From: an uncultured Planctomycetia bacterium
GTDB taxonomy: Bacteria; Planctomycetota; UBA1135; JALUZX01
NCBI GenBank assembly: GCA_964561605.1
Contig: CAZLQD010000036.1
Span: 53,447-117,446 of the forward strand
Reading direction: 5' to 3'
DNA length: 64,000 bases
A program made the translations under genes and the position numbers. This document shows, one piece after another, positions 1,129 through 30,789 of this stretch. Under the pieces are notes generated by a model. It ran no database searches and had not been told where the DNA came from. It worked only from the letters and a program-made list of their open reading frames with translations. The stretch's first letter is position 1. The number at the start of each line of letters is the position of its first letter.

Positions 1129-1144
1129 CGGCACGGCTCTTGCA
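1129..1144 (+). promoter_or_regulatory. Candidate sigma-54 (-24/-12) promoter
   Basis: CGGCACGGCTCTTGCA has GG at 1130-1131 and GC at 1142-1143. This is the 12-nt register of the TGGCACG-N4-TTGCW consensus, about 80 nt upstream of GTG 1224. Sequence match only. Confidence 0.4.
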
Positions 1145-1436: not shown

Positions 1437-1525
1437 TGGAAAGAATCCCCCCTCCGGGAACTTTCCCGGAAGGGGAGGATCGAAACCCAGAGGAGGTCGG
1501 AGAAGCCGATCCCAAGGAGGACGAG

Positions 1526-1900: not shown

Positions 1901-1970
1901 GAGAAGGTCGAGATCCGCGGGGGGAGGCTTCGGCTTCCCCCTTCCAGGAATGAACAGGAGAGGTGTCCCT

Positions 1971-2423: not shown

Positions 2424-2459
2424 TTCCCCCGGGGATCGGAAAGACGAAAAGGTGACGCG

Positions 2460-2960
2460 ATGCTTTCCAAGAAGATGGAGAAGGCCCTGAACGACCAGAT
2501 CAACGCCGAGATCTTCTCCACCTATCTCTACCTCTCCATGGCGGCCTGGTTCCATTCCAGGAAACTCTCGGGCTTCGGCAGGTGGATGGAGATGCAGGCC
2601 CGGGAGGAGTGGGAGCACTCCATGAAGTTCTTCCACTACGTCGACGAGCGGGGGGGCCGGGTGGTCCTGTCGGCCGTCGAAGCCCCCCAGTCCGAGTGGG
2701 AGTCCCCCCTGGAGGCCTTCAAGGCGGCCTACGAGCACGAGAAGTACATCACCGGGAGGATCCACGACCTGGTGGCCCTGGCCCGGGAGGAGAAAGATTT
2801 CGCCACGGAGAATTTCCTCCAGTGGTTCGTCACCGAGCAGGTCGAGGAGGAGTCCTCGACAGGCCGGGTGGTGGACCAGATCGAGATGGTTGCCGATTCC
2901 AGGCAGGGTCTGTTCATGCTGGACCGGGAGCTGGGCGCCCGGGGTGCCCAGGAGGCCTGA
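2460..2960 (+). CDS. ftn: Ferritin (non-haem, Ftn type)
   Basis: Ftn-like sequence throughout: NDQINAEIFSTYLYLSMAAW, QAREEWEHSMKFFHYV, FLQWFVTEQVEEE. Confidence 0.9.
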   Translation: MLSKKMEKALNDQINAEIFSTYLYLSMAAWFHSRKLSGFGRWMEMQAREEWEHSMKFFHYVDERGGRVVLSAVEAPQSEWESPLEAFKAAYEHEKYITGRIHDLVALAREEKDFATENFLQWFVTEQVEEESSTGRVVDQIEMVADSRQGLFMLDRELGARGAQEA

Positions 2961-11964: not shown

Positions 11965-12582
11965 TCACTCGGTGCGGTCGTTCTTCAGCCGGGGATGGAT
12001 GTCGTATTTCCTGAGCTTGCGGTAGATCGTGGCCCTTCCCAGCTTGAGGGCCCTGGCGGTCTGCTGGATATTCCCTCCCGTGATCCGAAGGGCCCGCTCG
12101 ATGATCCTCTTCTCCTCCTCCCTGAAGGGGAGGATCTCACCCGTGTCCCTCTGGGGCTCGGGCCTCGGCTCGGGGGTGGGTGGGCCCTGGATCCTCTCGG
12201 TGCCCTGGCGCGCGGAGAGGAGGAGCCGGGGTTCACTCACAGGCATCTGCAGGACGTCGTAGATCCCGTGTGGAGCGAGCTCCTGGATCGCCTTGTCGGC
12301 GTTCCGGGAGAAGACCACGATCTTTACGTTCGGCGCGATTTGGTGGGCCTTCTGGGCCAGCTCCACCAGGGTCAGCCCGGGCAGGTCCTCGTCCACGAAC
12401 ATGGTCTCCACGGCCTGGCTCCCCAGGAGGCGGAGGGCCTCGTGGGCGTCCCTCGCCTGGAGAACCCCGTAGCCGGCCTTCTGGAGGTTCCTGGTCATGG
12501 CTTCCCGGAGGCCCGATTTCGCGTCGGCCAGGAGCAACTTACCCTTGTTGTTCTTCATGGTGCTGTTATAAGTGCCGTTCAT
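11965..12582 (-). CDS. Response regulator: receiver domain + Fis-type HTH, no AAA+ module
   Basis: REC (KLLLADAKSG...MFVDEDLPG...IVVFSRN) and C-terminal Fis-family HTH (IIERALRITGGNIQQTARALKLGRATIYRKLRKY). ATG 12582 is preceded by GAGGAG. Confidence 0.8.
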   Translation of the reverse strand: MNGTYNSTMKNNKGKLLLADAKSGLREAMTRNLQKAGYGVLQARDAHEALRLLGSQAVETMFVDEDLPGLTLVELAQKAHQIAPNVKIVVFSRNADKAIQELAPHGIYDVLQMPVSEPRLLLSARQGTERIQGPPTPEPRPEPQRDTGEILPFREEEKRIIERALRITGGNIQQTARALKLGRATIYRKLRKYDIHPRLKNDRTE

Positions 12583-19300: not shown

Positions 19301-19382
19301 GGCCGGGGGATTCTAACCGGCGACAGAACCTCCTTCCCACAAAGGAAACGTCCTTCCCGGCGAAGGACCCGGCAAGGGATCC

Positions 19383-21263
19383 CTACTGGACGGTGAAAGT
19401 CGTCGTATAACGGGCCGAGCCCTTGGGCGTGGCGGCAAAGATGTGGAACTTGTAGGTTCCCCTGGGAAGGAGGGCCGGCGCCTTGAGGGAGAAGAGGATG
19501 GTCTCCTCCCGGGGGCCGAGGGCGATCTCCCCCGAGGAGGAGAGGACCGGCCCGGTCACGTCGAAACGGTAGCCTCCTCCTTCGATCTCGATCTTGAAGG
19601 AGTTGAGGGACCGCAGGTCCGGGAGGGCCGATACGGCGAAACGGACCGTCAGGGGTTTGCCGTAGGAGACCTGCGCCGGGTAGGGGGCGGAGCGGACCTC
19701 CACGGCCTGGAAGGGCCTGGGGCAGAGGGCCAGGAGGGGGGTGGCCGAAGTGAGGCCCGCCGGGTCCTTGGCGGTCACCTTGAAGTAGAAGCCCGGATGG
19801 TCGGGAAGGCCCCCCAGGGTGACGGCCCGGCGGCCCTTGTAGGCCTTGCCGGAGGGGATCCTGGATCCCAGGGCGGGGGTGGGACCGTACTCCACCTGGA
19901 AGAGGCAGAGATCGGGGTCGGACGGCCTTCGGGGCACGGCCAGGTCGAGGACCGCCGAGGTGCCCTTCCGGCCTTCCACCTTCACGATCGGCTTGCCGGG
20001 AGGGGTCCTGTCGGGGGTTCTCTTGGATCCTTTGCGGAATGGGGCATAGAGAGGATCGCCCATGTGGACGGCCATCCAGAAGAGGGCCGGGTCGGAGACC
20101 ATGGCCGCCTCGGCCCAGGTGAATCCCTGGGTCACGTAGTAGAGGAGCACCTCCGGCCTCGGGTGGCCCGAGAGATAGGGCTCTCCCACCACGCCGCTTC
20201 CCGCCGTGAGCCCCCTGGCCAGGGCGGAGCCCAGGAAAGTCCCCGGGGCGGCCCTTTCGAAGCCGCGGATGGAGTTGCTGTTCAGGTCGCAGGCGATCGA
20301 CCCGGGGAGCCACTCCCAGACGTCGTGATACTGGTTGTAGTTGTACCACCCGCCGTAGAGGAGGGCCCTGGGCGCGGTGAGGGCCGGGGACCCGTTCCGC
20401 CAGCGGGCGCCCTGCTCGCCGATCTCCTTTCCGCCGGCTTCCCAGTAGACGGGGAGGCCCACGAGTGGGGGAAAGAATTTGCCGAAGGCCATGCACTGGT
20501 CGGCCGACTTGTAGGAGGAGTATCCGAATGGATAATTTTGTTTCAGGAAGGTGTCGGAGAAGTATCCGAACCTGGTGTCCACGTAGGCCCTTCCCCAGAG
20601 GTATCCCTGTCCCTGTCCCCAGTGCTTCTCGGCGTAGAGGGCGCCGTCCACCAGGTCCTTGGCGGCCTCGGCGTCGGTCCCGTCGATCCTGGCGGTCAGG
20701 TAGAGGTCCTTCCCCGCGTAGGAGAAGTTCTTGTGGGTGAAGCGGCCCCGGTCGGGCTGGACGGAGGGGGAGTACTCCAGGTAGGGGTTGGAGGCCCACC
20801 AGGAGGGAAGGGGCCAGTGGGTCCTGTCTCCCAGGGCGGAAGGGACGGTCATGAGGCTGTCCACCGCCCTGAGGCGCCTGCTGGACAGGGGGGTGTAGAT
20901 GTAATATGGCACACCGTAACAAAAGAGGAGGGTGTCGATCTTCCCGGGGCCCAGGGTCTGGAGGGCCTTCTTCACCGGAGTGACCAGCTTGTCGTGGAAT
21001 TCGGCCCAGCCCTTCGTGCCGGACCAGTAGCGCCTGGTCCCGGTGAGGGGGAGGCCGAGGAGGTTCTTGGACGGCACTCCCCGGGCCTTGGCGTAGTAGA
21101 GGGCCACCTCCTTGGAATCCCCCAGGCCGTCTCCGTCGGCGTCGGGCCAGCCACGGGAGTAGATCACCAGGACGCGGGTGGGGTCGTCGGGGGTGACGGT
21201 CTGGGCGGGCAGGAGTCGGGGGAGGAGGAGGATGGAAAGGAAGGGGAGAAGACAAAGGCGCAT
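19383..21263 (-). CDS. Secreted protein resembling the TIGR03790 family, with C-terminal Ig-like region
   Basis: Signal peptide MRLCLLPFLSILLLPRLLPAQT. N-terminal VLVIYSRG...EVALYYAKARGVPSKNLLGLPL and a later GVVGEPYLSGHP...MGDPLYAPF, as I recall for TIGR03790. The final ~150 aa are beta-rich. Confidence 0.65.
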   Translation of the reverse strand: MRLCLLPFLSILLLPRLLPAQTVTPDDPTRVLVIYSRGWPDADGDGLGDSKEVALYYAKARGVPSKNLLGLPLTGTRRYWSGTKGWAEFHDKLVTPVKKALQTLGPGKIDTLLFCYGVPYYIYTPLSSRRLRAVDSLMTVPSALGDRTHWPLPSWWASNPYLEYSPSVQPDRGRFTHKNFSYAGKDLYLTARIDGTDAEAAKDLVDGALYAEKHWGQGQGYLWGRAYVDTRFGYFSDTFLKQNYPFGYSSYKSADQCMAFGKFFPPLVGLPVYWEAGGKEIGEQGARWRNGSPALTAPRALLYGGWYNYNQYHDVWEWLPGSIACDLNSNSIRGFERAAPGTFLGSALARGLTAGSGVVGEPYLSGHPRPEVLLYYVTQGFTWAEAAMVSDPALFWMAVHMGDPLYAPFRKGSKRTPDRTPPGKPIVKVEGRKGTSAVLDLAVPRRPSDPDLCLFQVEYGPTPALGSRIPSGKAYKGRRAVTLGGLPDHPGFYFKVTAKDPAGLTSATPLLALCPRPFQAVEVRSAPYPAQVSYGKPLTVRFAVSALPDLRSLNSFKIEIEGGGYRFDVTGPVLSSSGEIALGPREETILFSLKAPALLPRGTYKFHIFAATPKGSARYTTTFTVQ

Positions 21264-21300
21264 GGATGCCTCCAGGAAGGTGCCGGGAAAGGAATCCTCC

Positions 21301-22263
21301 TTATTCTACCCCTTTTCCCTCCTCCAGGATCCGCCGGGTTTCCCTGATCCAGGCCCGGGCCCGGGTCCTCTCCCCGGGCGAGAGGTTCGGGAGGGCCTTC
21401 TCCAGGCGGGCCAGGGCGCTCCGGAGAGCTTGGAGGGCCTTGGGTGAGGTCCGGGAGAGGACCTTCGCCTTCTCCTCCTTCCACCAGGCCTCCCATTTTT
21501 GCGCCCCCTTCCGCAGGTCCTTCCAGCCCTGTTCGGGCTCCAGGCCGAAGCGTTTCCCCGAGAGGCGCCGGAGTGCCCTGAGACCGATCTCCTTCTCCAG
21601 GGCCCACCGTTCTTTTTCGGGGAGGTGGAAAGCCTTCGCAAGAGGACCGTTGCCGGGGCACCCCGCCTGGAGGAGCCCCAGGAGGAAGGGCACCCCCCAG
21701 GGGGCGCCGAGTTCCAGGAGGGAGGAGGCCGCGGCGGCCCGGACCAGGGGAGCGCTCCTGGTGGGGGCGGGAAGGACCTCCAGGAGCAACCTGGGTGCAG
21801 CCTGGGAACAGCCCAGGTCTCCCAGGGCGAAGGCCCCGGCGGCGGCCACTTCCGGGTCCGGGTCGCCCAGGGCCCGGCAGAGGGGGAGGAGGGACCTTTG
21901 GTCCAGGCACCCCAGGAGGGTGGCGGCGGCCATCTTCACCTGGGGAGTGCCTTCCTGGAGGAGAAGAACCAGGGCCGGGCCTCCTTCCCTACCCAGGGCC
22001 CGGAGGGCCTTCCAGGCCTCCATGGCCTTGGAGGAGGCCGGGTCCGTTCCGGCCAGGAGGGTCCGGGCCGGGGCGGGGGGAGTGCCCGAGGGGAGGGAGA
22101 AGACCGGGAGGCCTGGAGGGAGGAGGAGGTCTTCCAGGGTGGAGGGAGATGCCTGGGAAGGGGGATGTGCCTGGGGCTTGGGGGCTGCGCAGGAACCCAG
22201 GCCGAGGATTCCTGAAAGGAAGAAAAGGGAAAGGGCGGATCCTCTCGGGGAGTACGAAAACAT
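21301..22263 (-). CDS. HEAT-repeat lipoprotein
   Basis: Lipobox LGLGSC. HEAT-like repeats: LGCLDQRSLLPLCRALGDPDPEVAAAGAFALGDLG, PLVRAAAASSLLELG. Confidence 0.7.
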   Translation of the reverse strand: MFSYSPRGSALSLFFLSGILGLGSCAAPKPQAHPPSQASPSTLEDLLLPPGLPVFSLPSGTPPAPARTLLAGTDPASSKAMEAWKALRALGREGGPALVLLLQEGTPQVKMAAATLLGCLDQRSLLPLCRALGDPDPEVAAAGAFALGDLGCSQAAPRLLLEVLPAPTRSAPLVRAAAASSLLELGAPWGVPFLLGLLQAGCPGNGPLAKAFHLPEKERWALEKEIGLRALRRLSGKRFGLEPEQGWKDLRKGAQKWEAWWKEEKAKVLSRTSPKALQALRSALARLEKALPNLSPGERTRARAWIRETRRILEEGKGVE

Positions 22264-22346
22264 CGGTCTCTCCTCTCACCAGGGGAAAGACCGATGGTAA
22301 CGCCCCGGGCCTCCGGGTGCCCAGGGGCGGAGAAGGAAAGGCCTGG

Positions 22347-22721
22347 TTACTTCTTCCTCTTCCTCGTGGCCGCCCCGGCAGCCGCAAGGCCGAGGCCCAC
22401 CAGGAGGAGGGTCGTGGGCTCCGGAACGGGGGTCTCTTTGCCCGGACCCGTTCCTACGGATCCGGAGGGGCCCGTTCCGCCGTCCCCTTTGGGCTTGGGC
22501 GGGACCAGGGCGGCGGGGGGCTGCTCCTGGGAGACCAGGTCCTTGCCACCCGGGCCGGGGCCCAGTTTGGGCCTGTTGAAACTGGAGTCGTCGGGAGGGG
22601 ACTGCTGGGGGGAAGAGGCCGTAACCTGGGAAGAGCCTCCACCTTTGGAGCATCCTCCGGCGAAGGGGAGTGCCGCCAGAGCCAAGATCCCCAATCCCAA
22701 GGCGATTCCTTTCATCTCCAT
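22347..22721 (-). CDS. PEP-CTERM sorting-domain protein with N-terminal lipoprotein signal (124 aa)
   Basis: Lipobox LPFAGGC. The middle is Pro/Gly/Ser-rich. The C-terminus is VPEPTTLLLVGLGLAAAGAATRKRKK, i.e. PEP motif + TM + basic tail. Confidence 0.8.
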   Translation of the reverse strand: MEMKGIALGLGILALAALPFAGGCSKGGGSSQVTASSPQQSPPDDSSFNRPKLGPGPGGKDLVSQEQPPAALVPPKPKGDGGTGPSGSVGTGPGKETPVPEPTTLLLVGLGLAAAGAATRKRKK

Positions 22722-22994
22722 ACCACCTTTCTGCGTCGAACCCCGCCTGCTTCTTTTCTAGAAAAAAGCCGTTTGTCTCAAAAAGTAACAGGAAAAGGTC
22801 CGCTTGTTTCTCCTTCTTGTCTTCGGAGCAAGAGGTCTTCGTGTCTTGCAAGAGTAGCCCCTGAAATCGCATGGGGTTGGCGGAGGCGGCCGGAGAAAGG
22901 AGGGAAAAAATTTCTCTTTGTTCTTCCCTGGAACAAAAGTGCTTCATTGGGAACCGCTCCCGCCTGGGGAGGAGGGCCCGGGAACACCGAGGGC

Positions 22995-25900
22995 TCAGGG
23001 GTTGCCGGGAAGGCGGCCCGGAAATCCCAGGAGGAGGCGGGACTGGGTGGGGAGGACAAGGATCCGGGCGTCACCCGCCGGAGGTGCGGCGATGGGGCGG
23101 CCGTCCCGGTAGCTCCAGAGGACCTGCCACTCCTCGGGGTCCAGGCAGAGCAGGGTCCCGTCGTCCAGGCCCAGGTAGACCTTTCCCTCCAGGAAGGCCC
23201 CCGGCGAGGAGGGTGCGGCCTTGAGGGGGATCTCCCGGAGGACCTTTCCCCCCTGCCTTTTCAGGAGGACCACTCGTTTCGCCTGGGGGAGGGCCAGGAC
23301 CCGGTCTCCCAGGAAGAGGGGGGGAAGGCTCAAGGGAGCGGTGAGCCGGGTCTTCCAGGAGGGTGAACCCTTGGGGGTGAAAGCCAGGATGGACCCGTCC
23401 AGGCAGGCCACCACGACCTGGGTCTTGTCCGCTGCAGGAGCTCCTACACACAGGTCGGGAAGGACCCGCGTCCAGAGGGGGCTTCCCGTCCCGGCGTCCC
23501 TGGCGGAAAGGAGGCCCGGCCGGATTCCGAAGTAGACCTTCCGTCCCGAGAGGACGGGAGGGCTCGAGAGGGCACCTTTCAAGTCCCGGCTCCAGAGAAG
23601 GCGCCCTTCTCCCGGATCCAGGCAGAGAAGGCGTGGGGGCCTTCCCGTGAAGACCAGGACCCCTGAAGGGCCCGCAAGGGCCGGGCCGGCGCCGCTGGGG
23701 GCGACCTTCTTCTTCCAGAGGAGTCTGCCTTCCTTCAAGGAGAGGCAGCGGACCGTCCCCTCGGCGGAGACCAGGAAGACCTTCCCCCTTCGGACCATGG
23801 GCCGGAAGATCTTCCCCGAGAAATCTCCCGTGCGGAAGACCCACTTCTCCTTGCCCCTTTCCGGGTCGAGGCAGGTGAGGATCCCCGCCCGATCCGCCAC
23901 GAGGTAATCCTTCCCGGCCAGGAGGGCGGGCTGGTCCACCGGTCCGGGGAGGGGGGCGGCCCAGGCCCTCCTGCGGGGAAGCCAGGCCAGGAGCCTTCCC
24001 CGGCCCGTCCCCTTGAAGTGGAGGCTCACCGGGTCGAATCCTTCTTTCCTGAAGACCACCTGGTGACTTCCCTGTGGATGGAATTCCAGGGGTAGGGGTG
24101 TCTTCCCTGCGGCCCGGCCGTCGAAGAAGATCCGGGCTCCCGGGGGAACGGACTCCACCTTGAGGGGCAGGCGGACCATCCTTTCGAAGGGAGCCCTGGG
24201 CTCCATCCTCTTGAGAGCCTTGTACACCGCCAGGGCCCGGGGGAAGTCCTGCTTTTTTGCCAGGGCTTCGAGCTCCTCCATCTTGTCCAGGACGGCCCGG
24301 AACTTCCTGGCCCGGCTCACCACGTAGGCCCGGAGCTCGTTGTCCTTCCGGTAGAGTCGGGCCACTTCGGAGTAGAGCTTCCAGGCCTTCCGGAAGTCCC
24401 ATTTCCGCTCGGCCGCCCTGGCCCCTTTGATGAGGGGGTCCAGTTTCTTCGCCAGTCTTTCCTCGGCCAGGTCCTTCTCCAGGCGGGCCTCGAGGCGGGA
24501 AGCCTTCTCCCGTCCTTTCAGGATCCGGTTCAGGGGTTTTTCGATGGTCTCCTTGGGACAGGTCTTCTGGAAGACCTCGAAGGGCCAATGGGCCAGGATT
24601 TCCTTGATCCGGAGAAGAACCTCTTTCCTGGAGGGATCGGTGACCTTCCTCAGGATCTCCAGGGCGGCCTTCCTCTCCTTCAGGGTCGTGGCGTTGTCCG
24701 AGGCCTTGGCGAGGGCTCTCTCCATGGCGTCGGCCATCTCCTGGAGGTCTTCCGCAATGGAGGGAAGGCGCACGTTCCCCAGGATCCCCAGGAACTTCTT
24801 GTGGCCCCTGATCCTGGGAAGGAGCTCCTTGTAGAGCAGGAGGGCCTCGTCCAGCCTACCCTCCTCCTGGAACCTCGAGGCCTCCTCCAGTACGGCCCGG
24901 ATCTTGGCCTCCTTCGCCTCCCTGGCCTTTCGGCGGATCTCCTCCCGGGCCGCCTCGATCTTCCGCTTGACCCGGGCCGCCCGAAGGGCCACGGGGGAAT
25001 CGGGGAGTTCCTCCAGGATCTTTCCGGCCAGGGCCAGGGCCCGGTCGGATTCTCCTTGGGAGACGAGCCGGGAGAGCTCTTTCTCCAGGGTCGCCTCTCT
25101 GTGCCTCCTCAGGACCACCTTTCCTGTGAAGAAGAGGGCCAGGCCCAGGGTCAGGGCGATCCCGGAGCCCACCAGGAGGGCCTTGCGTTTGTCCGTCTTC
25201 TTTCGCTTGAGTTCCCGGAGTTCCCGCTGGGCCTCTTTCTTCCGGGGGTTGAGCTTGGTCAGGTGCTCCAGGACGGTGACGAGCTGCTGGGTCTTTCCTT
25301 CCTCCCTGAAGATACGGGCCATCGTTTCCAGGGCTTCTTCGGCCCTCTCGGGATCGCCGGCCCGCTGGTGGACCCTGGCCACCCGCGCCAGGACTCCCGG
25401 ATCCTCGGGGCGGATCCTGGAGAGTTCCTCCACCTCCTCCAGGGCCCGCTGGTTCATCTCCTTCTCGAAGAAGAGGTCGCAGAGCTCCTGGGTGAGGCGG
25501 AGGTATTCCTCCTGGTCCTCCCGGGGGTCGAGGAAGGACCTCAGGTCCACCCGGGCCTGGAGGTTCTTGGGATCCAGCTCCACCGCCTCGGCCAGGAGCT
25601 CCCTGGCGATCCCCGGAGCCTTCTCCCGGAGGTTGCGGGCCGCCTCCACGAGGACCTCGGCGGCCGATTTCATGTCGTGTATCGTCTTGAAGGCCCTGGC
25701 CACGAGGCGGGCGTCTTCGGGGGAGGTGATCTCCCTCTCCTCCTTGATGACCGCCAGGGTGCGGACGGCCTCTTTGATGTGGCCGTTGCGGACCATCCGG
25801 TCCACCAGGCGGTTCAACTCCTGGAGGGTGGCCTTCCTGACGATTCCCTGGTCCACGCAGAAGGCTATGGCCTTGGCGCATTCGAAGAGGGGGACCAGGG

Positions 25901-26639
25901 TGGCCCGTGCGACGTCCCGGACCGACCGGGTCCCGTCGAGGAAGGGCAGGACCTTGGCGACGTTCTCGCTCACTCCCGTCCGCTTCGCCTCGGGGAGGGT
26001 GAGGAAGATCTCGTCCAGGTCCCCGATCTTCTCCAGGATGATCTCCCACTCGTCCTTGCGGCGGGCCACTTCCAGGAGGATGCCGCTCACGTCGTAGAAA
26101 TTGGACCGGACCGAGTCCTGGGGCGGTTCCTCTCCTTTGAAGAACTCGAAGGTGGCCCGTTTCCAGGTGAAGAGGGAGTAGATCTCCTCCTCTTCGTGCA
26201 TCTGGATCACCGATTCCACCTGCTCACGGGAGATCACCCCCATTCCTACCAGGATGTCCCCGATCCTCCCGCCCTTGGCCTTCTGGCGGAGGAGGGCGTT
26301 CTTCAGGTCCGAAGGATTCAGGATCCCTGCGGCGATGAGCTTGTCTCCCAGGAGGCGGTTTCGGTTTTCCTGGTCTCCCACGAGCTGGACCTTGCCCTGG
26401 TCGAAGTAGACCAGCCTCACCCCGGTGGGGGAGGTGATCCGCAAGGTCCCGGTCATCTGGGACATGGAGAGAGTCTGGAAGATGTCCGAGAGGGAGATGT
26501 TGGAAAGGTCCCCCTTGATGGTGACAAAATGGGCGTTCTGGATGGCCTCTTCGGCGACGGGAGCCTTCTTCTCGGGCTCCTCCCCGGCGAGGAGGAACTC
26601 TACCTCTTCCGCATCCAGAGGGGTCTTGCTTTCGCTCAT
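22995..26639 (-). CDS. Large multidomain membrane protein: DUF4388 + tandem MshEN-type motifs + TPR, TM, periplasmic TPR/coiled region + PEGA + PQQ-like beta-propeller (1214 aa)
   Basis: ATG 26639 (MSESKTPLD...). DUF4388-like: GDLSNISLSDIFQTLSMSQMTGTLRI. MshEN-like: LLGDKLIAAGILNPSDLKNALLRQ-KAKGG-RIGDILVGMGVISREQVESVIQMH. TM: ALLVGSGIALTLGLALFFTG. PEGA: VESVPPGARIFFDGRAAGKTP. Repeated xxxLW propeller blades. Track ORF to 27923 is a 5' extension. Confidence 0.8.
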   Translation of the reverse strand: MSESKTPLDAEEVEFLLAGEEPEKKAPVAEEAIQNAHFVTIKGDLSNISLSDIFQTLSMSQMTGTLRITSPTGVRLVYFDQGKVQLVGDQENRNRLLGDKLIAAGILNPSDLKNALLRQKAKGGRIGDILVGMGVISREQVESVIQMHEEEEIYSLFTWKRATFEFFKGEEPPQDSVRSNFYDVSGILLEVARRKDEWEIILEKIGDLDEIFLTLPEAKRTGVSENVAKVLPFLDGTRSVRDVARATLVPLFECAKAIAFCVDQGIVRKATLQELNRLVDRMVRNGHIKEAVRTLAVIKEEREITSPEDARLVARAFKTIHDMKSAAEVLVEAARNLREKAPGIARELLAEAVELDPKNLQARVDLRSFLDPREDQEEYLRLTQELCDLFFEKEMNQRALEEVEELSRIRPEDPGVLARVARVHQRAGDPERAEEALETMARIFREEGKTQQLVTVLEHLTKLNPRKKEAQRELRELKRKKTDKRKALLVGSGIALTLGLALFFTGKVVLRRHREATLEKELSRLVSQGESDRALALAGKILEELPDSPVALRAARVKRKIEAAREEIRRKAREAKEAKIRAVLEEASRFQEEGRLDEALLLYKELLPRIRGHKKFLGILGNVRLPSIAEDLQEMADAMERALAKASDNATTLKERKAALEILRKVTDPSRKEVLLRIKEILAHWPFEVFQKTCPKETIEKPLNRILKGREKASRLEARLEKDLAEERLAKKLDPLIKGARAAERKWDFRKAWKLYSEVARLYRKDNELRAYVVSRARKFRAVLDKMEELEALAKKQDFPRALAVYKALKRMEPRAPFERMVRLPLKVESVPPGARIFFDGRAAGKTPLPLEFHPQGSHQVVFRKEGFDPVSLHFKGTGRGRLLAWLPRRRAWAAPLPGPVDQPALLAGKDYLVADRAGILTCLDPERGKEKWVFRTGDFSGKIFRPMVRRGKVFLVSAEGTVRCLSLKEGRLLWKKKVAPSGAGPALAGPSGVLVFTGRPPRLLCLDPGEGRLLWSRDLKGALSSPPVLSGRKVYFGIRPGLLSARDAGTGSPLWTRVLPDLCVGAPAADKTQVVVACLDGSILAFTPKGSPSWKTRLTAPLSLPPLFLGDRVLALPQAKRVVLLKRQGGKVLREIPLKAAPSSPGAFLEGKVYLGLDDGTLLCLDPEEWQVLWSYRDGRPIAAPPAGDARILVLPTQSRLLLGFPGRLPGNP

Positions 26640-26720
26640 CTGGATTCCAGACTCTTTGTTTCGGCTTCTCCCAAGGCACCTTGGTTCCGGCGGAGGAAGC
26701 CACCTTTCCGAGGAGGAGCC

Positions 26721-28250
26721 TTGGCCAGGACGCGTCCAGGATTCCTTATCGTCCCAGCCCTCTTCCTGACTCCAGTCTTCTGGAGCCCGGATCTCCCTCT
26801 TCCCCAGGCTTTTCGTGGTCAGGTGGAGAAATTCCTGGCCGATCTCCAGAAGGCCACCACCTTGGACCAGGCCCTTCCGGCGCGGGACGGGCTGGTCCTC
26901 CTGGGGAGGGGTGTCACTCCCCAGGTGGCGAAGGCCCTGGAGAAGGCCGGGAGGAAGGCCCGGTGGAGTCTCCTCCAGGTCCTGGCCCTCCTGGGCGGGA
27001 AGGATGGAGGCAGGGCGCTCCGGCAGGTGCTGGTCCAGCCCCGCTGGCGGAGCCGGGAAGGGTGTCTCTGCCTGGCCGCCCTGGGTCTTCCCCTGGAGTC
27101 GAGGCCCGAGTTGGAGGCCCTGGCGGACCTGGCCGGCGCGGCGGGAGAGAGGATGGCCTGGGCAAGGATCTGCGGCCTCCTGGCCCTGGCCCGGCCGATC
27201 TCGTCCACCGGGGGAAGGCCCGAGGTTTCCTCCCGGACTCTCGAGGCGCCCCAGACCCCCCAGGAGAAGGCCGCCGTCCTTCTCTTCCTGGCCGCCCGGG
27301 GGAGTTCCGCCGACCTGGCCTCGGCCCTGGGCCGCTTCTGGCCGGAGAAGGTCCTTTCCTGGGGGGACCGCCTCGTGGCCCGGGCGGCCTGCCTGGCCGT
27401 GGCGCGAAGGAAGATCCTGGGTTGGGAGGGGCCCCTGCTCTCCTGGCTGGCCTCGGGGAAGACCCGCCCCGAGGACCGGCGGGCCCTCGCCCTGGCCCTG
27501 GGGGCCCTGGAGGTTCCTTCCAGCTCCCCGTCCTTGAAGGGGTTCTCCGATCCCAGGGAGTGGGCCTGTTTCTTCTCCTTGGGGTCGGAAGGGGGGGGAA
27601 AGGGGGAGGAGGAGAGAATCCGGGCCAGGTTGGGCCTTCCCACCTTGGACGATGTGACCAAAGGGGCCTTGGCAGGGGCTTTCGCCAGGTGCCTCGCCAG
27701 GGAGGATCTTCTCCGTAAGGCCCCTTCCTTCCTGGGGGACCACGAGGTGAGGGAAGTCCTCTCCCTGGAGTTGGCCCGGCGGATCCTCCTGGCCCGCCGG
27801 GGGGATCCTTTCCTGGACCGGGCGGGCCGGAGGACCTGGGACCCGGCCCAGGGCACGGAGGGGTTCGTCGTGGCGGCCTTGGCCTCCCGGGGAGTCCTCC
27901 AGAACAAGGGCCCCTTGCCCCAAGGCTGGTCCCTCTGGGCCAAGGCCGTCAGAGGAGAGGTCCCGCCCCCGGTGGTGGGGGAGGCCCTGGAGAAAGCCCT
28001 GAGGAAGCGGTGGGCCTGGCCCACCCAGCTCCTGGAATCGGCCTGGAATGAAGAAGGGATGGCGATCCTTCTGGGGGCGAGCGAGTTCTACCTCCAGAAG
28101 TATCCAGGCCTGGCCCCTCCCAGGGGCAAGGCCCCCTTGCCCCTGGGGGCTCCGTACCGGGGGTCCCCTTTCTACGGCTGGCTCGAAGCCTTCCTCGCGG
28201 CACGTCCCCTCTTCTCTCCCCCGCTGGAGGGAGGGGGGAAGAAGGGCTGA
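26721..28250 (+). CDS. Secreted HEAT/ARM-like repeat protein, divergent from the large membrane protein
   Basis: Normal codon usage in this frame. TTG 26721 is preceded by AGGAGGA and gives signal-like ARTRPGFLIVPALFLTPVFW; GTG 26823 is an alternative. Repeats such as VAKALEKAGRKARWSLLQVLALLGGKDGGRALRQVL. The start is uncertain. Confidence 0.55.
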   Translation: MARTRPGFLIVPALFLTPVFWSPDLPLPQAFRGQVEKFLADLQKATTLDQALPARDGLVLLGRGVTPQVAKALEKAGRKARWSLLQVLALLGGKDGGRALRQVLVQPRWRSREGCLCLAALGLPLESRPELEALADLAGAAGERMAWARICGLLALARPISSTGGRPEVSSRTLEAPQTPQEKAAVLLFLAARGSSADLASALGRFWPEKVLSWGDRLVARAACLAVARRKILGWEGPLLSWLASGKTRPEDRRALALALGALEVPSSSPSLKGFSDPREWACFFSLGSEGGGKGEEERIRARLGLPTLDDVTKGALAGAFARCLAREDLLRKAPSFLGDHEVREVLSLELARRILLARRGDPFLDRAGRRTWDPAQGTEGFVVAALASRGVLQNKGPLPQGWSLWAKAVRGEVPPPVVGEALEKALRKRWAWPTQLLESAWNEEGMAILLGASEFYLQKYPGLAPPRGKAPLPLGAPYRGSPFYGWLEAFLAARPLFSPPLEGGGKKG

Positions 28251-28317
28251 GGGGCTCTTCTCCCGGGTTCCAGAGGTGCAGGAAGGGGGGCTCGAGGGAA
28301 GGACGGGGCCCGGTCTT

Positions 28318-30789
28318 TCAGGCTACGCCGCCCTTTCCCGATTCCCGGGACCGCAGGCTCCGCAGGAGGCGGTCCGCCTCGGCCAGGCCTTCCATGGCGT
28401 CTCTCCCGTAGCCGTCGGCCCCGATCTCTTCGGCGAAGGAGCGGGTCACGACGGCTCCTCCCACGAGGAAGCGGGAGGGCAGTCCCCGTTTGCGGGCCTC
28501 CGAGATCACCCGTTTCATCTCCACCATGGTGGTGGTCATGAGGGCCGAGAGGGCCACCAGGGGGGCCTTCTCCTGGAAGGCTCTGGCCAGGATGGTCTCC
28601 CGGTCCACGTTCTTGCCCAGGTCGATCACCTCGTACCCGTGGTTCTCCAGGACGGCGGCCAGGATGTTCTTGCCGATGTCGTGGACGTCTCCTTTTACGG
28701 TGGCCAGGACGACTTTCCCCTTCGCCTCGCCCGCCGCCTTGGGCAGGAGAGGGCGGAGGACCTGGAAGGCCCTCTGCATGGTCTCCGCCGCCAGGATCAC
28801 CTGGGGAAGAAAGAAGATCTTCGCGTTGAAACGGCGTCCCACTTCCTCCATGGCCGGAACGAGGATCTCGGAATTGAGGGCCATGGGATCCATCCCGCTC
28901 TCCACGCCCTCCCCGACCAGGTCCTGGATCCGGTCCCGGTCTCCTTCGATGACGGCGCGGCGGATCTTCTCCTCCAGGGGGGGCTCCTTCTCCCGGGCCG
29001 CCTCGGAGGCCTTCTTCCGGACCGGGGCCGGGGCGCCGCCGAAGAGGCGGATGTAGGTGGAGAACTGGGGGTCCCTCTGGATGAGCACGTTTCCCGCGGC
29101 GGCCGTTTCCATCAAGTCCCGGTCGAGAGGGTTCAGGATGGCCCCGTCCAGGCCGGCCTGCATGGCCATGGCGAGGAAGGTCCGGTTCACCAGCTCCCTC
29201 CTGGGGAGTCCGAAGGAGACGTTGCTGAGTCCCAGGAGGGTGCGGACGTGGAAGCGTTCCCGGACCTCCTGGATGGTGCGCATGGTCGCCAGGGCCTGGT
29301 CGGGGGCGGCGCTCACGGGCAGGCAAACGCAATCGATGAAGAGGTCCCTCCTGGGGATCCCGGCCTCGTCGCAGGCCGCGACGATGGTTTCGGCGATCCG
29401 GATCCGCTCCTCCACGGTTTTGGGAACGCCCTTCTCGTCGACCAGGAGTCCCAGGACGGCGGCGCCCCATTTCCGCGCCAGGGGAAGGACGCGGAGGATC
29501 TTCTCCCTCTCACCCGTTACGGAGTTGATGAGGCATTTCCCGGGCGCTTCGGCCAGGCCCGCCTCCAGGGCCTCCGGGTCGGCGGAGTCGATGGAGAGGG
29601 GCGGTGAAGGGGCCACTTCCTGGACCGTCCGGACGGCGGCGGCCATGAGGCGGGCCTCCAGGTCCGAGTCGGCGCCGCCGACCCCGACGTTCACGTCCAG
29701 CACGTGGGCCCCGGCGCCGGCCTGGTCGGCCGCTTCCCGGCGGACCGTGGCCATGGAACCCCCCTTCAGCTCGGCCCGGAACTTCTTCCTTCCCGAGGGG
29801 TTGATCCGCTCCCCGATGACCCGGAAGGGCAGACCGGGCCCGAAGAGGACCGTCTCCGTTCCAGAGGCGAGGCGCGTCACGGGAAGGGGGTCGGGCCTCC
29901 CGGGCTTCATGGCCTTTACGACGGGCCGGATGGTGCGGATGTAGTCCTCGTCGGTTCCGCAGCATCCACCGATGATGGAGACGCCGCAGGAGACGAATCC
30001 CGGCACGCAGTCCATCAGGTCCCGGGGGGTTCCGGGGAATATGGTCCTGTCTCCGTCCCGGACGGGAAGCCCTGCATTGGGCTCCACCGAAAGAGGTTTC
30101 ACCGCATAGGGCGCCATCTCCCGGAAGACCTCGAGAAGCTTGGCCGGCCCGACGGAGCAGTTGGCCCCTACGACGTCCACGTCCAGGGCCTCCACCACGG
30201 TGAGGGCCGTCAGGGCGTCCGTTCCGTAGAAGGTGCGGCCGTCCTCCTGGAAGGTGAGTTGGGCGATGAGGGGGCCGTCGTAGTGGCGCCTCACGGCCTG
30301 GACGATGGCCTTCATCTCCCGGAGTTCGAAGATGGTCTCCACGATGAAGAGGTCCGGGTCCATGGAGACCAGGGCCTCGACCTGTTCCTCGTAATTCCGG
30401 CGGACCTCTTCGAAGGTGGCCTCCCCCAGGGGCTGGATCAGCTTGCCCGAGGGGCCGAGGCCGGCCGCCACGAGGGTTCCCGGCCCCGCCGCTTCCCTCG
30501 CGAGGCGGACGGCGAGGCGGTTGATCTCCCGCATCCTCCCCGCCAGGTCGGGATGGTCCGCCAGGCGCAGGGGTGAAGCACCGAAGGTCGCAGTGATGAG
30601 GATGTCCGCCCCGGCGGAAACGTATGCCCTGTGCACGTCCCGGATCACCTCGGGCCGGGAGAGCATGAAGGCCTCGGGTGGTTCGCCCGGCGGAAGGCCC
30701 CTGGCCTGGAGCATGGTGCCCATGGCCCCGTCCAGGAGGAGGACCTCCTTGCGAAGCCGGCTGGTGAAGCTTTGGCGGGCGTAATTCAT
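28318..30789 (-). CDS. metH: Methionine synthase, short form (Hcy-binding + pterin-binding + B12-binding; no AdoMet reactivation domain)
   Basis: 823 aa. Contains an N-terminal S-methyltransferase barrel (LLLDGAMGTMLQ...GGCCGT), a pterin-binding domain, and B12-binding DxHxxG (GDVHDIGKNI). The protein ends shortly after the B12 domain. Confidence 0.9.
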   Translation of the reverse strand: MNYARQSFTSRLRKEVLLLDGAMGTMLQARGLPPGEPPEAFMLSRPEVIRDVHRAYVSAGADILITATFGASPLRLADHPDLAGRMREINRLAVRLAREAAGPGTLVAAGLGPSGKLIQPLGEATFEEVRRNYEEQVEALVSMDPDLFIVETIFELREMKAIVQAVRRHYDGPLIAQLTFQEDGRTFYGTDALTALTVVEALDVDVVGANCSVGPAKLLEVFREMAPYAVKPLSVEPNAGLPVRDGDRTIFPGTPRDLMDCVPGFVSCGVSIIGGCCGTDEDYIRTIRPVVKAMKPGRPDPLPVTRLASGTETVLFGPGLPFRVIGERINPSGRKKFRAELKGGSMATVRREAADQAGAGAHVLDVNVGVGGADSDLEARLMAAAVRTVQEVAPSPPLSIDSADPEALEAGLAEAPGKCLINSVTGEREKILRVLPLARKWGAAVLGLLVDEKGVPKTVEERIRIAETIVAACDEAGIPRRDLFIDCVCLPVSAAPDQALATMRTIQEVRERFHVRTLLGLSNVSFGLPRRELVNRTFLAMAMQAGLDGAILNPLDRDLMETAAAGNVLIQRDPQFSTYIRLFGGAPAPVRKKASEAAREKEPPLEEKIRRAVIEGDRDRIQDLVGEGVESGMDPMALNSEILVPAMEEVGRRFNAKIFFLPQVILAAETMQRAFQVLRPLLPKAAGEAKGKVVLATVKGDVHDIGKNILAAVLENHGYEVIDLGKNVDRETILARAFQEKAPLVALSALMTTTMVEMKRVISEARKRGLPSRFLVGGAVVTRSFAEEIGADGYGRDAMEGLAEADRLLRSLRSRESGKGGVA

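What the first reader, a model, noticed from the sequence alone, without database searches (positions are those of the whole stretch)
19383..28250. Candidate undescribed envelope module: c-di-GMP-type sensor scaffold + PEP-CTERM lipoprotein + HEAT proteins + TIGR03790-like protein
Four co-directional, closely spaced genes lie on the minus strand: the 1214-aa DUF4388/MshEN/TPR/TM/PEGA/PQQ protein, a 124-aa lipobox+PEP-CTERM protein, a HEAT lipoprotein and a TIGR03790-like secreted protein. A fifth gene, a secreted HEAT-like protein, starts divergently 81 nt away. Every product is predicted to be envelope-located. Two of them (PEP-CTERM, TIGR03790) belong to families tied to exosortase-bearing genomes, as I recall the TIGRFAMs description. 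The large protein has a cytoplasmic module of the kind that binds c-di-GMP. I know of no characterised system with this composition. A plausible function is second-messenger-controlled sorting or display of PEP-CTERM cargo, or matrix assembly.
Basis: inference. Interest (0 to 1): 0.7.

Follow-up and report, generated by a model that had tools for sequence, protein, structure and literature searches.

The report
Planctomycete envelope cassette with PEP-CTERM mini-lipoprotein
Four of the five flagged genes form a gene cassette kept together in dozens of uncultured Planctomycetota: a membrane-spanning protein with a probable c-di-GMP-binding module, a tiny sigma-54-driven PEP-CTERM lipoprotein and two helical-repeat partners. 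No such set of genes has been described and its function is unknown; the fifth gene (TIGR03790) is a lineage-specific neighbour.

Summary
Only "HEAT-like" for E is weak.

Comparison with 79 related loci changes the picture:
- **Conserved unit.** It is E (divergent), D, C and usually B.
- **A (TIGR03790).** It is adjacent only in the window's closest relatives and lies on another contig in one related MAG.
- **D.** Its N-terminal PATAN domain carries a conserved tandem MshEN-type c-di-GMP motif. The modelled insert superposes on MshE–c-di-GMP at 0.7 Å.
- **C.** It is a conserved mini-protein: lipobox, Gly/Pro/Ser-rich linker, canonical PEP-CTERM.
A -24/-12 motif lies upstream of C in 41 of 49 related loci, against 0.19 expected. 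The window carries a degenerate version.
- **Exosortase.** None lies within 78 kb of this contig, and none was found beside C in the related loci. Whether the genome has one could not be tested.

Best reading, at moderate confidence: a c-di-GMP-responsive envelope-spanning scaffold that handles a tightly regulated PEP-CTERM surface or tether protein.

Main caveat: housekeeping genes flanking the cassette are also syntenic in this clade, so adjacency alone is weak evidence of shared function.

This is a new variant built from known parts, of moderate interest.

The parts
26721..28250 (+). E: 509-aa secreted, probably alpha-helical-repeat protein with no Pfam domain. It is a divergent member of a clade-specific family encoded divergently from D.
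   Evidence: ORF and TTG start. Only HEAT_2 at E = 0.04. No PDB sequence relative. An E-like gene sits upstream and divergent in 62 loci. The window E aligns to that family over 402 columns: hhalign probability 96.6%, E = 6e-10; hmmsearch --max gives 25 bits with high compositional bias. Family N-termini look like signal peptides.
26640..26720 (.). 81-nt divergent intergenic region between D and E, presumably holding a bidirectional promoter.
   Evidence: Coordinates. In related loci the apparent gap is mostly 10-150 nt, up to about 330. No sigma-70 consensus match was found.
22995..26639 (-). D: 1214-aa bitopic membrane protein. Cytoplasmic part aa 1-486: PATAN with an MshEN insert, then helical/TPR. 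TM helix aa 487-510. Periplasmic part aa 511-1214: helical stalk, PEGA, BamB-like beta-propeller.
   Evidence: Family size: 315 representatives at E <= 1e-30 among 1.84 billion, and roughly 90 of the top 150 are collinear proteins of about 1200 aa. At least 79 species-representative genomes carry a relative, nearly all labelled Planctomycetota MAGs.
26043..26516 (-). PATAN (DUF4388, PF14332) domain of D, aa 42-199, carrying an alpha-helical insertion.
   Evidence: PF14332 at 104 bits. In the AlphaFold2 model of aa 1-260 (mean pLDDT 78, with aa 1-36 disordered), helices at 90-156 are inserted between beta-strands. PATAN equals DUF4388 and has a helical insertion according to Makarova 2006, as cited in PMC12448109.
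26196..26354 (-). Tandem MshEN_N-type c-di-GMP-binding motif, aa 96-148: LLGDKLIAAGILNPSDLKNALLRQ / KAKGG / RIGDILVGMGVISREQVESVIQMH.
   Evidence: NF053729 at 50.8 bits, cut-off 38. PDB sequence hits to MshE 5htl, PilF 6f8l and PilB 9g1w. Foldseek top hit is 5htl_B (MshE with c-di-GMP): 52 columns, rmsd 0.7 A, 36% identity, probability 1.00. There are 2 mismatches to the 22 scored positions of the relaxed motif of Wang 2016. Across 65 sequences (64 core orthologues plus the window) the mismatch counts are 0 in 28, 1 in 17, 2 in 12, 3 in 7 and 5 in 1. The best match elsewhere in the same proteins has at least 6 mismatches.
25110..25181 (-). Single transmembrane helix of D, aa 487-510, preceded by KRKKTDKRK. 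Predicted topology is N-in, C-out.
   Evidence: Hydropathy scan. The segment is conserved in the alignment of D homologues.
23031..24164 (-). Periplasmic PEGA domain (aa 826-871) and PQQ/BamB-like beta-propeller (about aa 905-1203) of D.
   Evidence: PEGA 37.9 bits and PQQ_2 100 bits. TIGR03300 BamB scores 143 bits, below its cut-off of 285. PDB hits are BamB, PQQ-propeller kinase domains and designed propellers.
22847..22862 (-). Sigma-54-type -24/-12 element AGGGGCTACTCTTGCA. It is degenerate but keeps GG-N10-GC, and lies 125 nt upstream of the ATG of C.
   Evidence: GGGGCTACTCTTGCA is identical in the window, L003/L004 and L010, and is the best-conserved block of the D-C spacer. In the wider clade the canonical motif YGGCAYG-N4-TTGCT sits upstream of C in 41 of 49 loci, against 0.19 expected from 11 matches in 1.87 Mb of background.
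22347..22721 (-). C: 124-aa mini-protein with a signal peptide plus lipobox-like Cys24, a Gly/Pro/Ser-rich linker, and a canonical PEP-CTERM tail (VPEP, TM helix, RKRKK; aa 98-124, nt 22350-22430).
   Evidence: PF07589 31.4 bits and TIGR02595 28.9 bits. An orthologue lies immediately downstream of D in 52 of 54 core loci with enough flank. A lipobox is present in 43 of 49. The mature N-terminus carries a conserved 'C-ADHSG..D..PQAPINxPD' motif. The linker is 29% Gly, 13% Pro and 11% Ser, and the median length is 140 aa. It is the only PEP-CTERM ORF in the window and, apart from its own orthologues, in about 1.5 Mb of related loci.
21301..22263 (-). B: 320-aa HEAT-repeat lipoprotein with a conserved C-terminal motif (..RWALE..FGL(D/E)P..W).
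   Evidence: HEAT_2 at 51.6 bits. Orthologues lie downstream of C in 34 of 50 core loci with at least 3 kb of flank, sometimes separated from C by a pseudouridine-synthase gene. Lipoboxes are seen across the family.
19383..21263 (-). A: 626-aa secreted TIGR03790-family protein. It lies 37 nt downstream of B here but is not part of the conserved cassette.
   Evidence: TIGR03790 at 141.9 bits. It is adjacent only in the window and L003/L004. Homologues are located elsewhere. AlphaFold2 model has pLDDT 93.9: an alpha/beta domain at aa 30-415 plus two Ig-like domains at aa 425-626. Foldseek matches only the Ig tandem. Some family members are fused to CBM6, F5/8-C, PKD or T9SS tails.
19350..19368 (-). 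Terminator-like hairpin followed by a T-rich tail, 15 nt after the stop codon of A.
   Evidence: The number of such sites in the region is not above chance; only the position is suggestive.

Best explanation
The locus holds a cassette specific to an uncultured Planctomycetota clade. Its conserved core is E (divergent), D and C, usually followed by B.

**Components**
- D is a bitopic inner-membrane scaffold with no enzymatic domain. Its cytoplasmic PATAN domain carries an MshEN_N four-helix insert that most likely binds c-di-GMP. After a helical/TPR region and one TM helix, its periplasmic part is a roughly 300-aa helical stalk, a PEGA domain and a BamB-like beta-propeller.
- C is made from its own sigma-54 promoter, so it is expressed only when an unlinked enhancer-binding protein fires. 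It is a lipoprotein of about 120-140 aa made of little more than a short conserved N-terminal motif, a Gly/Pro/Ser-rich linker and a canonical PEP-CTERM anchor.
- E is a secreted helical protein and B is a HEAT-repeat lipoprotein. Both are probable periplasmic partners.

**Inferred mechanism**
c-di-GMP occupancy of D's cytoplasmic module is relayed across the membrane. It changes how D's periplasmic stalk and propeller, together with E and B, hold, position or hand over C. An exosortase encoded elsewhere then cleaves and transfers C. In this way deployment of a surface or tether protein (attachment, aggregation, matrix anchoring) is coupled to the second messenger.

**Shown versus inferred**
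- Shown: gene order, domain content, motif conservation, and a conserved match to the sigma-54 promoter consensus.
- Inferred: c-di-GMP binding, any D-C-E-B contacts, exosortase processing, and the phenotype.
- A (TIGR03790) is a lineage-specific neighbour, possibly co-transcribed with B here, and not a component.
For: - **E-D-C adjacency is kept more strictly than the flanks.** E is present in 62 loci. C is present in 52 of 54. By comparison the upstream aminotransferase gene is present in 47 of 64.
- **The block survives rearrangement.** The window lineage has only 27% D identity to the core clade. It has a different upstream flank (MetH instead of ThiF/aminotransferase) and two inserted genes downstream, yet it keeps E-D-C-B.
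- **C tracks the D family.** C is found only next to core D proteins. None of 9 loci with distant D-like paralogues has it.
- **The MshEN motif is under selection.** It passes the curated HMM and its model superposes on MshE-c-di-GMP.
- **The sigma-54 motif is highly enriched upstream of C.** It occurs in 41 of 49 loci against 0.19 expected. A sigma-54 activator gene lies on the same contig.
- **All products are envelope-directed**.
[quoted passage not shown] Sigma-54 motifs precede single-gene PEP-CTERM operons in Proteobacteria (PMC1569441).
Against: - The whole neighbourhood is syntenic in the clade: Fer4, ThiF, aminotransferase, E, D, C, B, AsnS, Na/H antiporter. Adjacency may therefore reflect slow genome rearrangement rather than shared function.
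- C is a separate transcription unit behind a 270-400 nt spacer. This is the normal layout of any PEP-CTERM gene.
- Two core loci (L060, L065) have E, D and B but no C at that place.
- B is missing or displaced in about a third of loci.
- No exosortase, GGDEF or EAL gene lies in the 78 kb inspected.
- In the window lineage the MshEN motif deviates at two scored positions (Arg shifted by one residue in motif 1; His for Gln at the end of motif 2). Its sigma-54 element is also degenerate.
- No interaction, expression or binding data exist. The organisms are uncultured.
Confidence: 0.38

Rival explanations
1. Two unrelated units sit side by side. D, with E and perhaps B, is a PATAN-type polarity or pilus-associated scaffold. 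C is an ordinary stand-alone sigma-54-regulated PEP-CTERM gene that happens to be parked next to D in a clade with very stable gene order.
For: - PATAN regulators bind the type IV pilus motor PilB in Synechocystis. PATAN genes are often found next to mglA/mglB (bioRxiv 10.1101/2021.06.11.447907).
- The distant D-like paralogues L071 and L079 are followed by MglB-like and MglA-like genes instead of C.
- Housekeeping flanks are as syntenic as the cassette.
- C has its own promoter and a long spacer, like most PEP-CTERM genes.
- L060 and L065 lack C.
Against: - C is the only PEP-CTERM ORF in the window, and related loci hold none apart from its orthologues. It is present in 52 of 54 core loci but in 0 of 9 paralogue loci.
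- The pairing survives the flank changes in the window lineage.
- No pilus, mglA or mglB genes lie near the core-clade D genes.
Confidence: 0.3
2. D, E and B form the sensory input that controls transcription of C. An envelope or c-di-GMP signal sensed by D is passed to an unlinked sigma-54 enhancer-binding protein. This would be analogous to the PrsK/PrsR/PrsT trio that accompanies PEP-CTERM genes in Proteobacteria.
For: - A sigma-54 motif lies directly downstream of D and upstream of C.
- D has a TPR region with a weak match to PrsT (TIGR02917, 31 bits).
- prsT lies next to the RpoN-dependent pepA in Aquincola.
- D has sensor-like periplasmic domains and no enzymatic output.
Against: - No kinase, receiver, AAA+ or DNA-binding domain occurs in D, E or B.
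- The PrsT match is far below its cut-off of 312 bits. D's TPR is cytoplasmic, whereas PrsT is a periplasmic lipoprotein.
- No conserved enhancer-binding-protein gene was noticed in the neighbourhood.
- Only a modestly enriched upstream k-mer (TGCCATCG, 10 of 41 loci) hints at an activator site.
Confidence: 0.15
3. One reading: all five genes, TIGR03790 included, form one exosortase-linked sorting module.
For: - A is co-directional with B, only 37 nt downstream of it, and followed by a terminator-like hairpin.
- The same arrangement is seen in the 72-79%-identical relatives L003/L004.
Against: - A is absent from the cassette in all other loci.
- In GCA_020638695.1 the 56%-identical A homologue is on contig 12, next to a trypsin/PDZ protease, while the D cluster is on contig 24. 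Another homologue has an unrelated context.
- In other genomes the slot after B holds a thioredoxin-like gene or nothing.
- No exosortase is nearby.
Confidence: 0.05

Closest known systems
MshEN (T2SSE_N) c-di-GMP receptor domain of MshE/PilB/PilF ATPases (Wang et al. 2016, PMC5013675)
   Same: - Two 24-residue motifs are joined by a 5-residue spacer.
- The curated HMM NF053729 is passed.
- The modelled four-helix module superposes on MshE-c-di-GMP (5htl) at 0.7 A over 52 residues, and on c-di-GMP-bound PilF GSPII domains at about 1.5 A.
   Different: - Here the module is an insertion inside a PATAN domain of a transmembrane scaffold with no ATPase.
- The window protein deviates at position 1 of motif 1 (Leu, with Arg one residue earlier) and at position 24 of motif 2 (His).
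- Binding is untested.
PATAN (DUF4388) proteins: PatA-type response regulators of cyanobacteria, SgnC of Myxococcus
   Same: - A PF14332 domain with the alpha-helical insertion is present.
- Co-annotation of PATAN with GspE_N has been remarked on in the literature.
- Distant paralogues of D neighbour MglA/MglB-like genes, as reported for PATAN genes.
   Different: - D has no receiver domain.
- The PATAN domain is fused to TPR, a TM helix, PEGA and a propeller, an architecture not discussed in the papers found.
- No pilus genes are nearby.
PEP-CTERM/exosortase system with sigma-54 regulation (Haft et al. 2006, PMC1569441; PepA/PrsT of Aquincola, PMC9850573)
   Same: - C has a canonical PEP-CTERM tail and a signal peptide.
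- It is a single-gene unit behind a long intergenic spacer with a -24/-12 motif.
- It lies next to a TPR-containing protein gene.
- Its weak best NCBIfam hit is flocculation protein PepA.
   Different: - The setting is Planctomycetota, not Proteobacteria.
- No PrsK, PrsR, PrsT or exosortase lies in the 78 kb inspected on this contig or was found in the related loci.
- C is a lipoprotein with almost no globular part.
- The PepA and PrsT HMM scores are far below their cut-offs (31.5 vs 80; 31 vs 312).
BamB (YfgL) lipoprotein of the BAM complex
   Same: D's C-terminal domain is a PQQ-type beta-propeller whose best natural PDB relatives include BamB.
   Different: - TIGR03300 scores 143 bits against a cut-off of 285.
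- The propeller is the C-terminal domain of a 1214-aa inner-membrane protein, not a free lipoprotein.

Membership tests
MshEN-type c-di-GMP receptor | Two tandem 24-residue motifs, relaxed form [RKPN]hGxxhhxx[GAS]hhxxxxhxxxhxx[QNKRYWST], joined by a 5-residue spacer | tested here: inconclusive
   The window D has the tandem with a 5-aa spacer (KAKGG) but fails 2 of the 22 scored positions: Leu at motif 1 position 1 and His at motif 2 position 24. Of the 65 sequences scored, 28 match perfectly and 17 have one mismatch.
MshEN-type c-di-GMP receptor | Match to the curated domain model (NF053729) above its cut-off | tested here: met
   50.8 bits against a cut-off of 38, at aa 97-146.
MshEN-type c-di-GMP receptor | Four-helix MshEN_N fold | tested here: met
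   The AlphaFold2 model (pLDDT 82-90 over aa 100-150) has 5htl_B as its top Foldseek hit, at rmsd 0.7 A over 52 columns. c-di-GMP-bound PilF GSPIIB matches at about 1.5 A. This is a prediction, not a solved structure.
MshEN-type c-di-GMP receptor | Binds c-di-GMP | not testable with these tools
   Requires ITC or DRaCALA on the purified domain.
PATAN (PF14332/DUF4388) | Pfam model above the gathering score, with an alpha-helical insertion | tested here: met
   104 bits against a cut-off of 25. The 122-position model spans 158 residues, and the helices at aa 90-156 are inserted.
PEP-CTERM sorting-signal protein | C-terminal PEP motif, hydrophobic helix and basic cluster; N-terminal signal peptide | tested here: met
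   The tail is VPEPTTLLLVGLGLAAAGAATRKRKK at the extreme C-terminus. PF07589 and TIGR02595 both score above cut-off. An N-terminal signal/lipobox is present.
PEP-CTERM sorting-signal protein | A cognate exosortase (EpsH/Xrt) is encoded in the same genome | not testable with these tools
   None lies in contig positions 136.9-215.4 kb. None was found among multi-TM proteins within about 10 kb of C in the related loci.
PrsK/PrsR/PrsT-regulated PEP-CTERM genes (Haft 2006) | Sigma-54 -24(GG)/-12(GC) motif in the long spacer upstream of the PEP-CTERM gene | tested here: met
   Found in 41 of 49 core loci against 0.19 expected. The window has a degenerate but exactly conserved GG-N10-GC version.
PrsK/PrsR/PrsT-regulated PEP-CTERM genes (Haft 2006) | Presence of PrsT (TIGR02917), PrsK and PrsR | tested here: not met
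   D scores 31 bits on TIGR02917 against a cut-off of 312. No kinase or NtrC-type gene is in the cassette. The only sigma-54 activator seen is a PAS-type one about 33 kb away.
TIGR03790 family | NCBIfam model above cut-off | tested here: met
   141.9 bits against a cut-off of 67, covering aa 49-396. Sources name 97 homologues as TIGR03790 family or hypothetical.
   No paper mentions the family. The two homologue contexts inspected hold no exosortase.
BamB (TIGR03300) | Equivalog model above cut-off | tested here: not met
   143.2 bits against a cut-off of 285.2. It is a BamB-like propeller, not BamB.
HEAT-repeat proteins (PF13646) | Pfam model above the gathering score | tested here: met
   B scores 51.6 bits against 27.7, and B orthologues score 55-58 bits. 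E does not meet it: 14.6 bits, and only 2 of 26 family members give weak hits.

The most novel reading that the evidence does not exclude
C is a Braun-lipoprotein-like covalent tether. Its N-terminal lipid sits in one membrane. Its PEP-CTERM end is transpeptidated by an unlinked exosortase onto an envelope or matrix polymer. The E-D-B complex, gated by c-di-GMP, decides when and where this happens. This would be a second-messenger-controlled envelope or matrix stapling system, specific to a large uncultured planctomycete clade. It would also give the first defined client-plus-chaperone set for a PEP-CTERM protein.
Probability: 0.1. Interest if true: 0.75.

Novelty: new variant of a known kind. 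Interest (0 to 1): 0.45.

Why it matters
- **An undescribed architecture.** No paper found here describes a PATAN domain with an MshEN insert fused to a TM helix, PEGA domain and beta-propeller. If it binds c-di-GMP it would carry the signal across the membrane with no enzymatic output domain. A modelled structure also gives a working idea of what the PATAN helical insertion does.
- **A tractable PEP-CTERM client.** PEP-CTERM/exosortase sorting is widespread, yet its clients and mechanism are poorly understood. This client is tiny and strictly conserved, with conserved neighbours and a conserved sigma-54 promoter. That would make a convenient test case.
- **Wider reach of sigma-54 control.** The sigma-54/PEP-CTERM association, first described for Proteobacteria, extends here to Planctomycetota.
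- **Limits.** The hosts are uncultured and the functional link among the genes rests on gene order alone.

Tried and rejected
- **Rfam.** A scan of 19000-28600 at E <= 1 gave only chance miRNA/viral hits. There is no riboswitch, c-di-GMP types included, in the C leader.
- **Sigma-70 and terminator scans.** There were no promoter matches, and terminator-like sites were not above chance.
- **Structure search for A.** The full-length model matched only generic Ig/FnIII tandems. The N-terminal alpha/beta domain stays unassigned. Sequence searches of A and E against the PDB found nothing.
- **Homologue search for E.** A profile search of the E family returned only 5 close relatives, too few for a useful structure prediction of E. 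Scanning 26 E-family members against Pfam gave only two weak HEAT hits.
- **Exosortase hunt.** I read the precomputed Pfam calls for 78 kb of the source contig. I also scanned representative multi-TM proteins from the related loci against Pfam. Neither showed an exosortase.
- **Upstream activator site.** Only a modest k-mer enrichment emerged (ATGGCA in 18 of 41 loci against 1 of 41 controls; CGATGGCA in 10 against 0). No clear palindrome was found.
- **Technical points.** My first neighbourhood clustering was polluted by antisense shadow ORFs typical of 65% GC DNA. A crude codon-usage gene caller missed E and C. Both were therefore located by position and motif instead.
- **Rejected idea.** D is not BamB or PrsT; both scores are far below their cut-offs.

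Full report
**1. Observation**

The window is about 65% GC. Long spurious ORFs therefore overlap the real genes on both strands. Codon-position GC identifies the real frames.
- A 19383-21263(-), 626 aa
- B 21301-22263(-), 320 aa
- C 22347-22721(-), 124 aa
- D 22995-26639(-), 1214 aa, whose Met lies inside a 1642-aa open frame
- E 26721(TTG)-28250(+), 509 aa

The divergent D/E gap is 81 nt. The window comes from ENA assembly ERZ27262694, contig k141_558684 (215 kb), and its public gene calls agree.

Profile searches confirm the domain calls:
- A is TIGR03790 (141.9 bits, cut-off 67).
- B is HEAT_2 (51.6 bits).
- C carries PEP-CTERM (PF07589 and TIGR02595, both above cut-off).
- D carries PATAN/DUF4388 (104 bits), an MshE-related c-di-GMP motif (NF053729, 50.8 bits, cut-off 38), TPR, PEGA and a PQQ/BamB-like propeller.
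- E is the exception. It has only a sub-threshold HEAT_2 hit (E = 0.04).

D has a single TM helix at aa 487-510, preceded by a basic cluster. The PATAN-TPR part is therefore cytoplasmic and the PEGA-propeller part periplasmic.

**2. Distribution of the D family**

A word-indexed search found only nine homologues of D. Two broader searches gave a fuller picture.
- A scan of one genome per GTDB species found relatives in at least 79 genomes. Nearly all are labelled as Planctomycetota MAGs, including a Lake Biwa 'CL500-15' bin.
- An exhaustive phmmer search with D aa 1-900 found 315 cluster representatives at E <= 1e-30. About 90 of the best 150 are collinear proteins of about 1200 aa.

The window lineage is an outlier of this family. 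It is 72% identical to two close relatives and only about 27% identical to the rest.

**3. Neighbourhood**

I define the core clade as loci scoring at least 300 bits against the window D. That gives 64 loci.

*E.* A family of roughly 500-aa proteins is encoded divergently upstream of D in 62 loci.
- The window E is a divergent member. hhalign gives 96.6% probability, E = 6e-10, over 402 aligned columns.
- hmmsearch gives only 25 bits, with strong compositional bias.

*C.* A PEP-CTERM ORF lies immediately downstream of D in 52 of 54 loci with enough flank. Only L060 and L065 lack it.

*B.* A HEAT lipoprotein family follows in 34 of 50 loci, sometimes after an intervening pseudouridine-synthase gene. 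A thioredoxin-like gene follows that in 16 of 48.

*A.* TIGR03790 is adjacent only in the window and its close relatives L003/L004.
- In MAG GCA_020638695.1 the 56%-identical A homologue is on contig 12, beside a trypsin/PDZ protease. That MAG's D cluster is on contig 24.
- A second homologue also has an unrelated context.
- A is therefore a lineage-specific neighbour. It lies 37 nt after B and is followed by a terminator-like hairpin, so it may be co-transcribed with B here.

*Caveat.* The housekeeping flanks are themselves syntenic in the core clade: ferredoxin, ThiF and aminotransferase upstream; AsnS, a 160-190-aa protein and a Na/H antiporter downstream. Adjacency alone is therefore weak evidence of shared function. 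Three observations count in favour of a real unit:
- The window lineage has a different upstream flank (MetH) and inserted genes downstream, yet keeps E-D-C-B.
- E-D and D-C adjacency is more complete than any flank.
- None of the nine loci with distant D-like paralogues has C. Two of them carry MglB-like and MglA-like genes instead.

**4. The c-di-GMP module**

Wang et al. 2016 define MshEN as two 24-residue motifs joined by five residues. They also give a relaxed search pattern.
- D aa 96-148 reads LLGDKLIAAGILNPSDLKNALLRQ / KAKGG / RIGDILVGMGVISREQVESVIQMH.
- It has the exact spacer length and fails only 2 of 22 scored positions.
- Across 65 sequences (64 core orthologues plus the window), 28 are perfect, 17 have one mismatch, 12 have two and 7 have three. 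The best match elsewhere in the same proteins has at least six mismatches.
- The consensus is RLGQRL(V/I)xAGLLxxxQLRxALxxQ-x5-PLGxxLVxxGLV...Q. The motif is under selection, and the window lineage is among the more divergent versions.

Structure supports this.
- An AlphaFold2 model of aa 1-260 from a 6-sequence alignment has mean pLDDT 78.
- Helices at 90-156 are inserted between the PATAN beta-strands.
- The top PDB match is MshE bound to c-di-GMP (5htl): 52 columns, rmsd 0.7 A, 36% identity.
- c-di-GMP-bound PilF GSPII domains follow.

[quoted passage not shown] It also fits the remark that some DUF4388 proteins are co-annotated with GspE_N. Binding itself is inferred, not shown.

**5. The PEP-CTERM mini-protein and its promoter**

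The C orthologues share four features:
- a lipobox, present in 43 of 49;
- a short conserved mature N-terminus, C-ADHSG..D..PQAPINxPD;
- a linker with 29% Gly, 13% Pro, 11% Ser and 9% Thr;
- a near-invariant tail, VPEPGTLLLVGTGLAGAALLRRRR. Median length is 140 aa.

C is the only PEP-CTERM ORF in the 64-kb window. Apart from its orthologues, none occurs in about 1.5 Mb of related loci.

The D-C spacer is long: 273 nt here and roughly 80-510 nt, typically about 300-400 nt, elsewhere.
- In 41 of 49 core loci it contains a match to [CTA]GG[CT]A[CT]-N5-TTGC on the coding strand, roughly 45-90 nt before the ATG.
- Only 0.19 matches are expected from the background rate of 11 matches in 1.87 Mb of strand positions. 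The background matches are scattered and mostly lack a nearby downstream gene call.
- The window has AGGGGCTACTCTTGCA at 22847-22862(-). GG-N10-GC is preserved, and the element is identical in three lineages whose D proteins are only 72% identical.

This is the layout Haft et al. described for proteobacterial PEP-CTERM genes: single-gene units, long spacers and a sigma-54 motif. In Aquincola, an RpoN-dependent pepA lies next to the TPR gene prsT, and both affect flocculation. A PAS-type sigma-54 activator is encoded about 33 kb from C on the same contig, so this genome very probably uses sigma-54.

**6. What is missing**

No exosortase, diguanylate cyclase or phosphodiesterase appears in contig positions 136.9-215.4 kb. 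None was found among multi-TM proteins near C in the related loci. Whole genomes could not be retrieved.

**7. A and E as proteins**

*A.* The model is very confident (pLDDT 93.9). It shows an alpha/beta domain at aa 30-415 plus two Ig-like sandwiches. PDB matches concern only the Ig tandem. Some homologues carry CBM6, F5/8-C, PKD or T9SS tails. This suggests a secreted enzyme or binding protein.

*E.* It has no Pfam or PDB relatives. The family shows signal peptides.

**8. Interpretation**

The most economical reading has three parts.
- D is a c-di-GMP-responsive, envelope-spanning scaffold with two periplasmic helical-repeat partners, E and B.
- C is a tightly regulated PEP-CTERM lipoprotein, and it is D's client.
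- The output would be regulated deployment of a surface or tether protein.

I put this at about 0.38. The main rival, at 0.30, is that D/E is a PATAN polarity-type scaffold and C an unrelated neighbour. A regulatory variant, in which D/E/B feed the sigma-54 activator, gets 0.15. The five-gene version that includes TIGR03790 gets 0.05.

**9. Novelty and interest**

Every part belongs to a known kind: PATAN, MshEN, PEP-CTERM, sigma-54 control, HEAT, BamB-like propeller. I found the combination nowhere in the literature searched.

I rate it a new variant of a known kind, with moderate interest (0.45). The anatomy is clear, conserved and testable. The functional coupling is unproven and the hosts are uncultured.

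Noticed in passing
L071:8778-10274 and L079:14306-15695 (loci with distant D-like paralogues): Where the core clade has the PEP-CTERM gene, these paralogues of D (PATAN, TPR, propeller; about 25% identity) are followed by a roadblock/MglB-like gene and an MglA-like small GTPase gene. This fits the reported PATAN-MglA/B neighbourhood.
   Followed up: partly
window 1129-1143 (+), with genes at about 1224-2960 (+): This is the only canonical sigma-54-type motif in the window (CGGCACGGCTCTTGC; 0.24 expected by chance). It lies about 95 nt upstream of a 70-aa ORF followed by desulfoferrodoxin, rubrerythrin and ferritin genes. A PAS-type sigma-54 activator is encoded about 5-6 kb upstream of the window start (L089:842-2641).
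   Followed up: no
window 19383-21263 (-), protein A: The TIGR03790 N-terminal alpha/beta domain (aa 30-415) is modelled at pLDDT above 90, yet no PDB match was returned for it. It has invariant Ser, Arg, Asp, Glu and His positions, and relatives are fused to carbohydrate-binding modules. It may be an uncharacterised secreted enzyme fold.
   Followed up: partly
L060:14476-15426, L005:14442-15359, L007:15328-16299 and 13 further loci: A thioredoxin-like gene of about 320 aa (weak AhpC/TSA hit) follows B, or C, in 16 of 48 core loci. The window lineage has the TIGR03790 gene in that slot instead.
   Followed up: partly
D-C spacers of the core loci, roughly 100-130 nt upstream of the sigma-54 motif: The k-mer ATGGCA/TGCCAT occurs in 18 of 41 spacers against 1 of 41 control segments. 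CGATGGCA occurs in 10 against 0. This may be an activator binding site, but no clear palindrome was found.
   Followed up: partly
window 22926-22944 (-), in the D-C spacer: An inverted repeat TTGTTC-N7-GAACAA lies about 65 nt upstream of the sigma-54-like element. It is partly conserved in L003 and L010 as TGTTCC..GGAAAC. It could be an activator site or a weak terminator for D.
   Followed up: no
window 11965-12582 (-): A 205-aa protein with a receiver domain and a Fis-type HTH_8 but no sigma-54 AAA+ domain. It looks like a truncated NtrC-like architecture.
   Followed up: no
D aa 37-90 and 157-205 (window about 26025-26531): Outside the MshEN insert, the PATAN core of the model has no credible structural neighbour in the PDB. 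All hits with probability above 0.9 cover only the helical insert.
   Followed up: no
protein-representative search hits P0113, P0118, P0124 and P0249: Other proteins contain up to five PATAN-like stretches (about 1450-1490 aa) or 22 PEGA repeats (2255 aa). These domains are heavily reused among the search hits; their source organisms were not checked.
   Followed up: no
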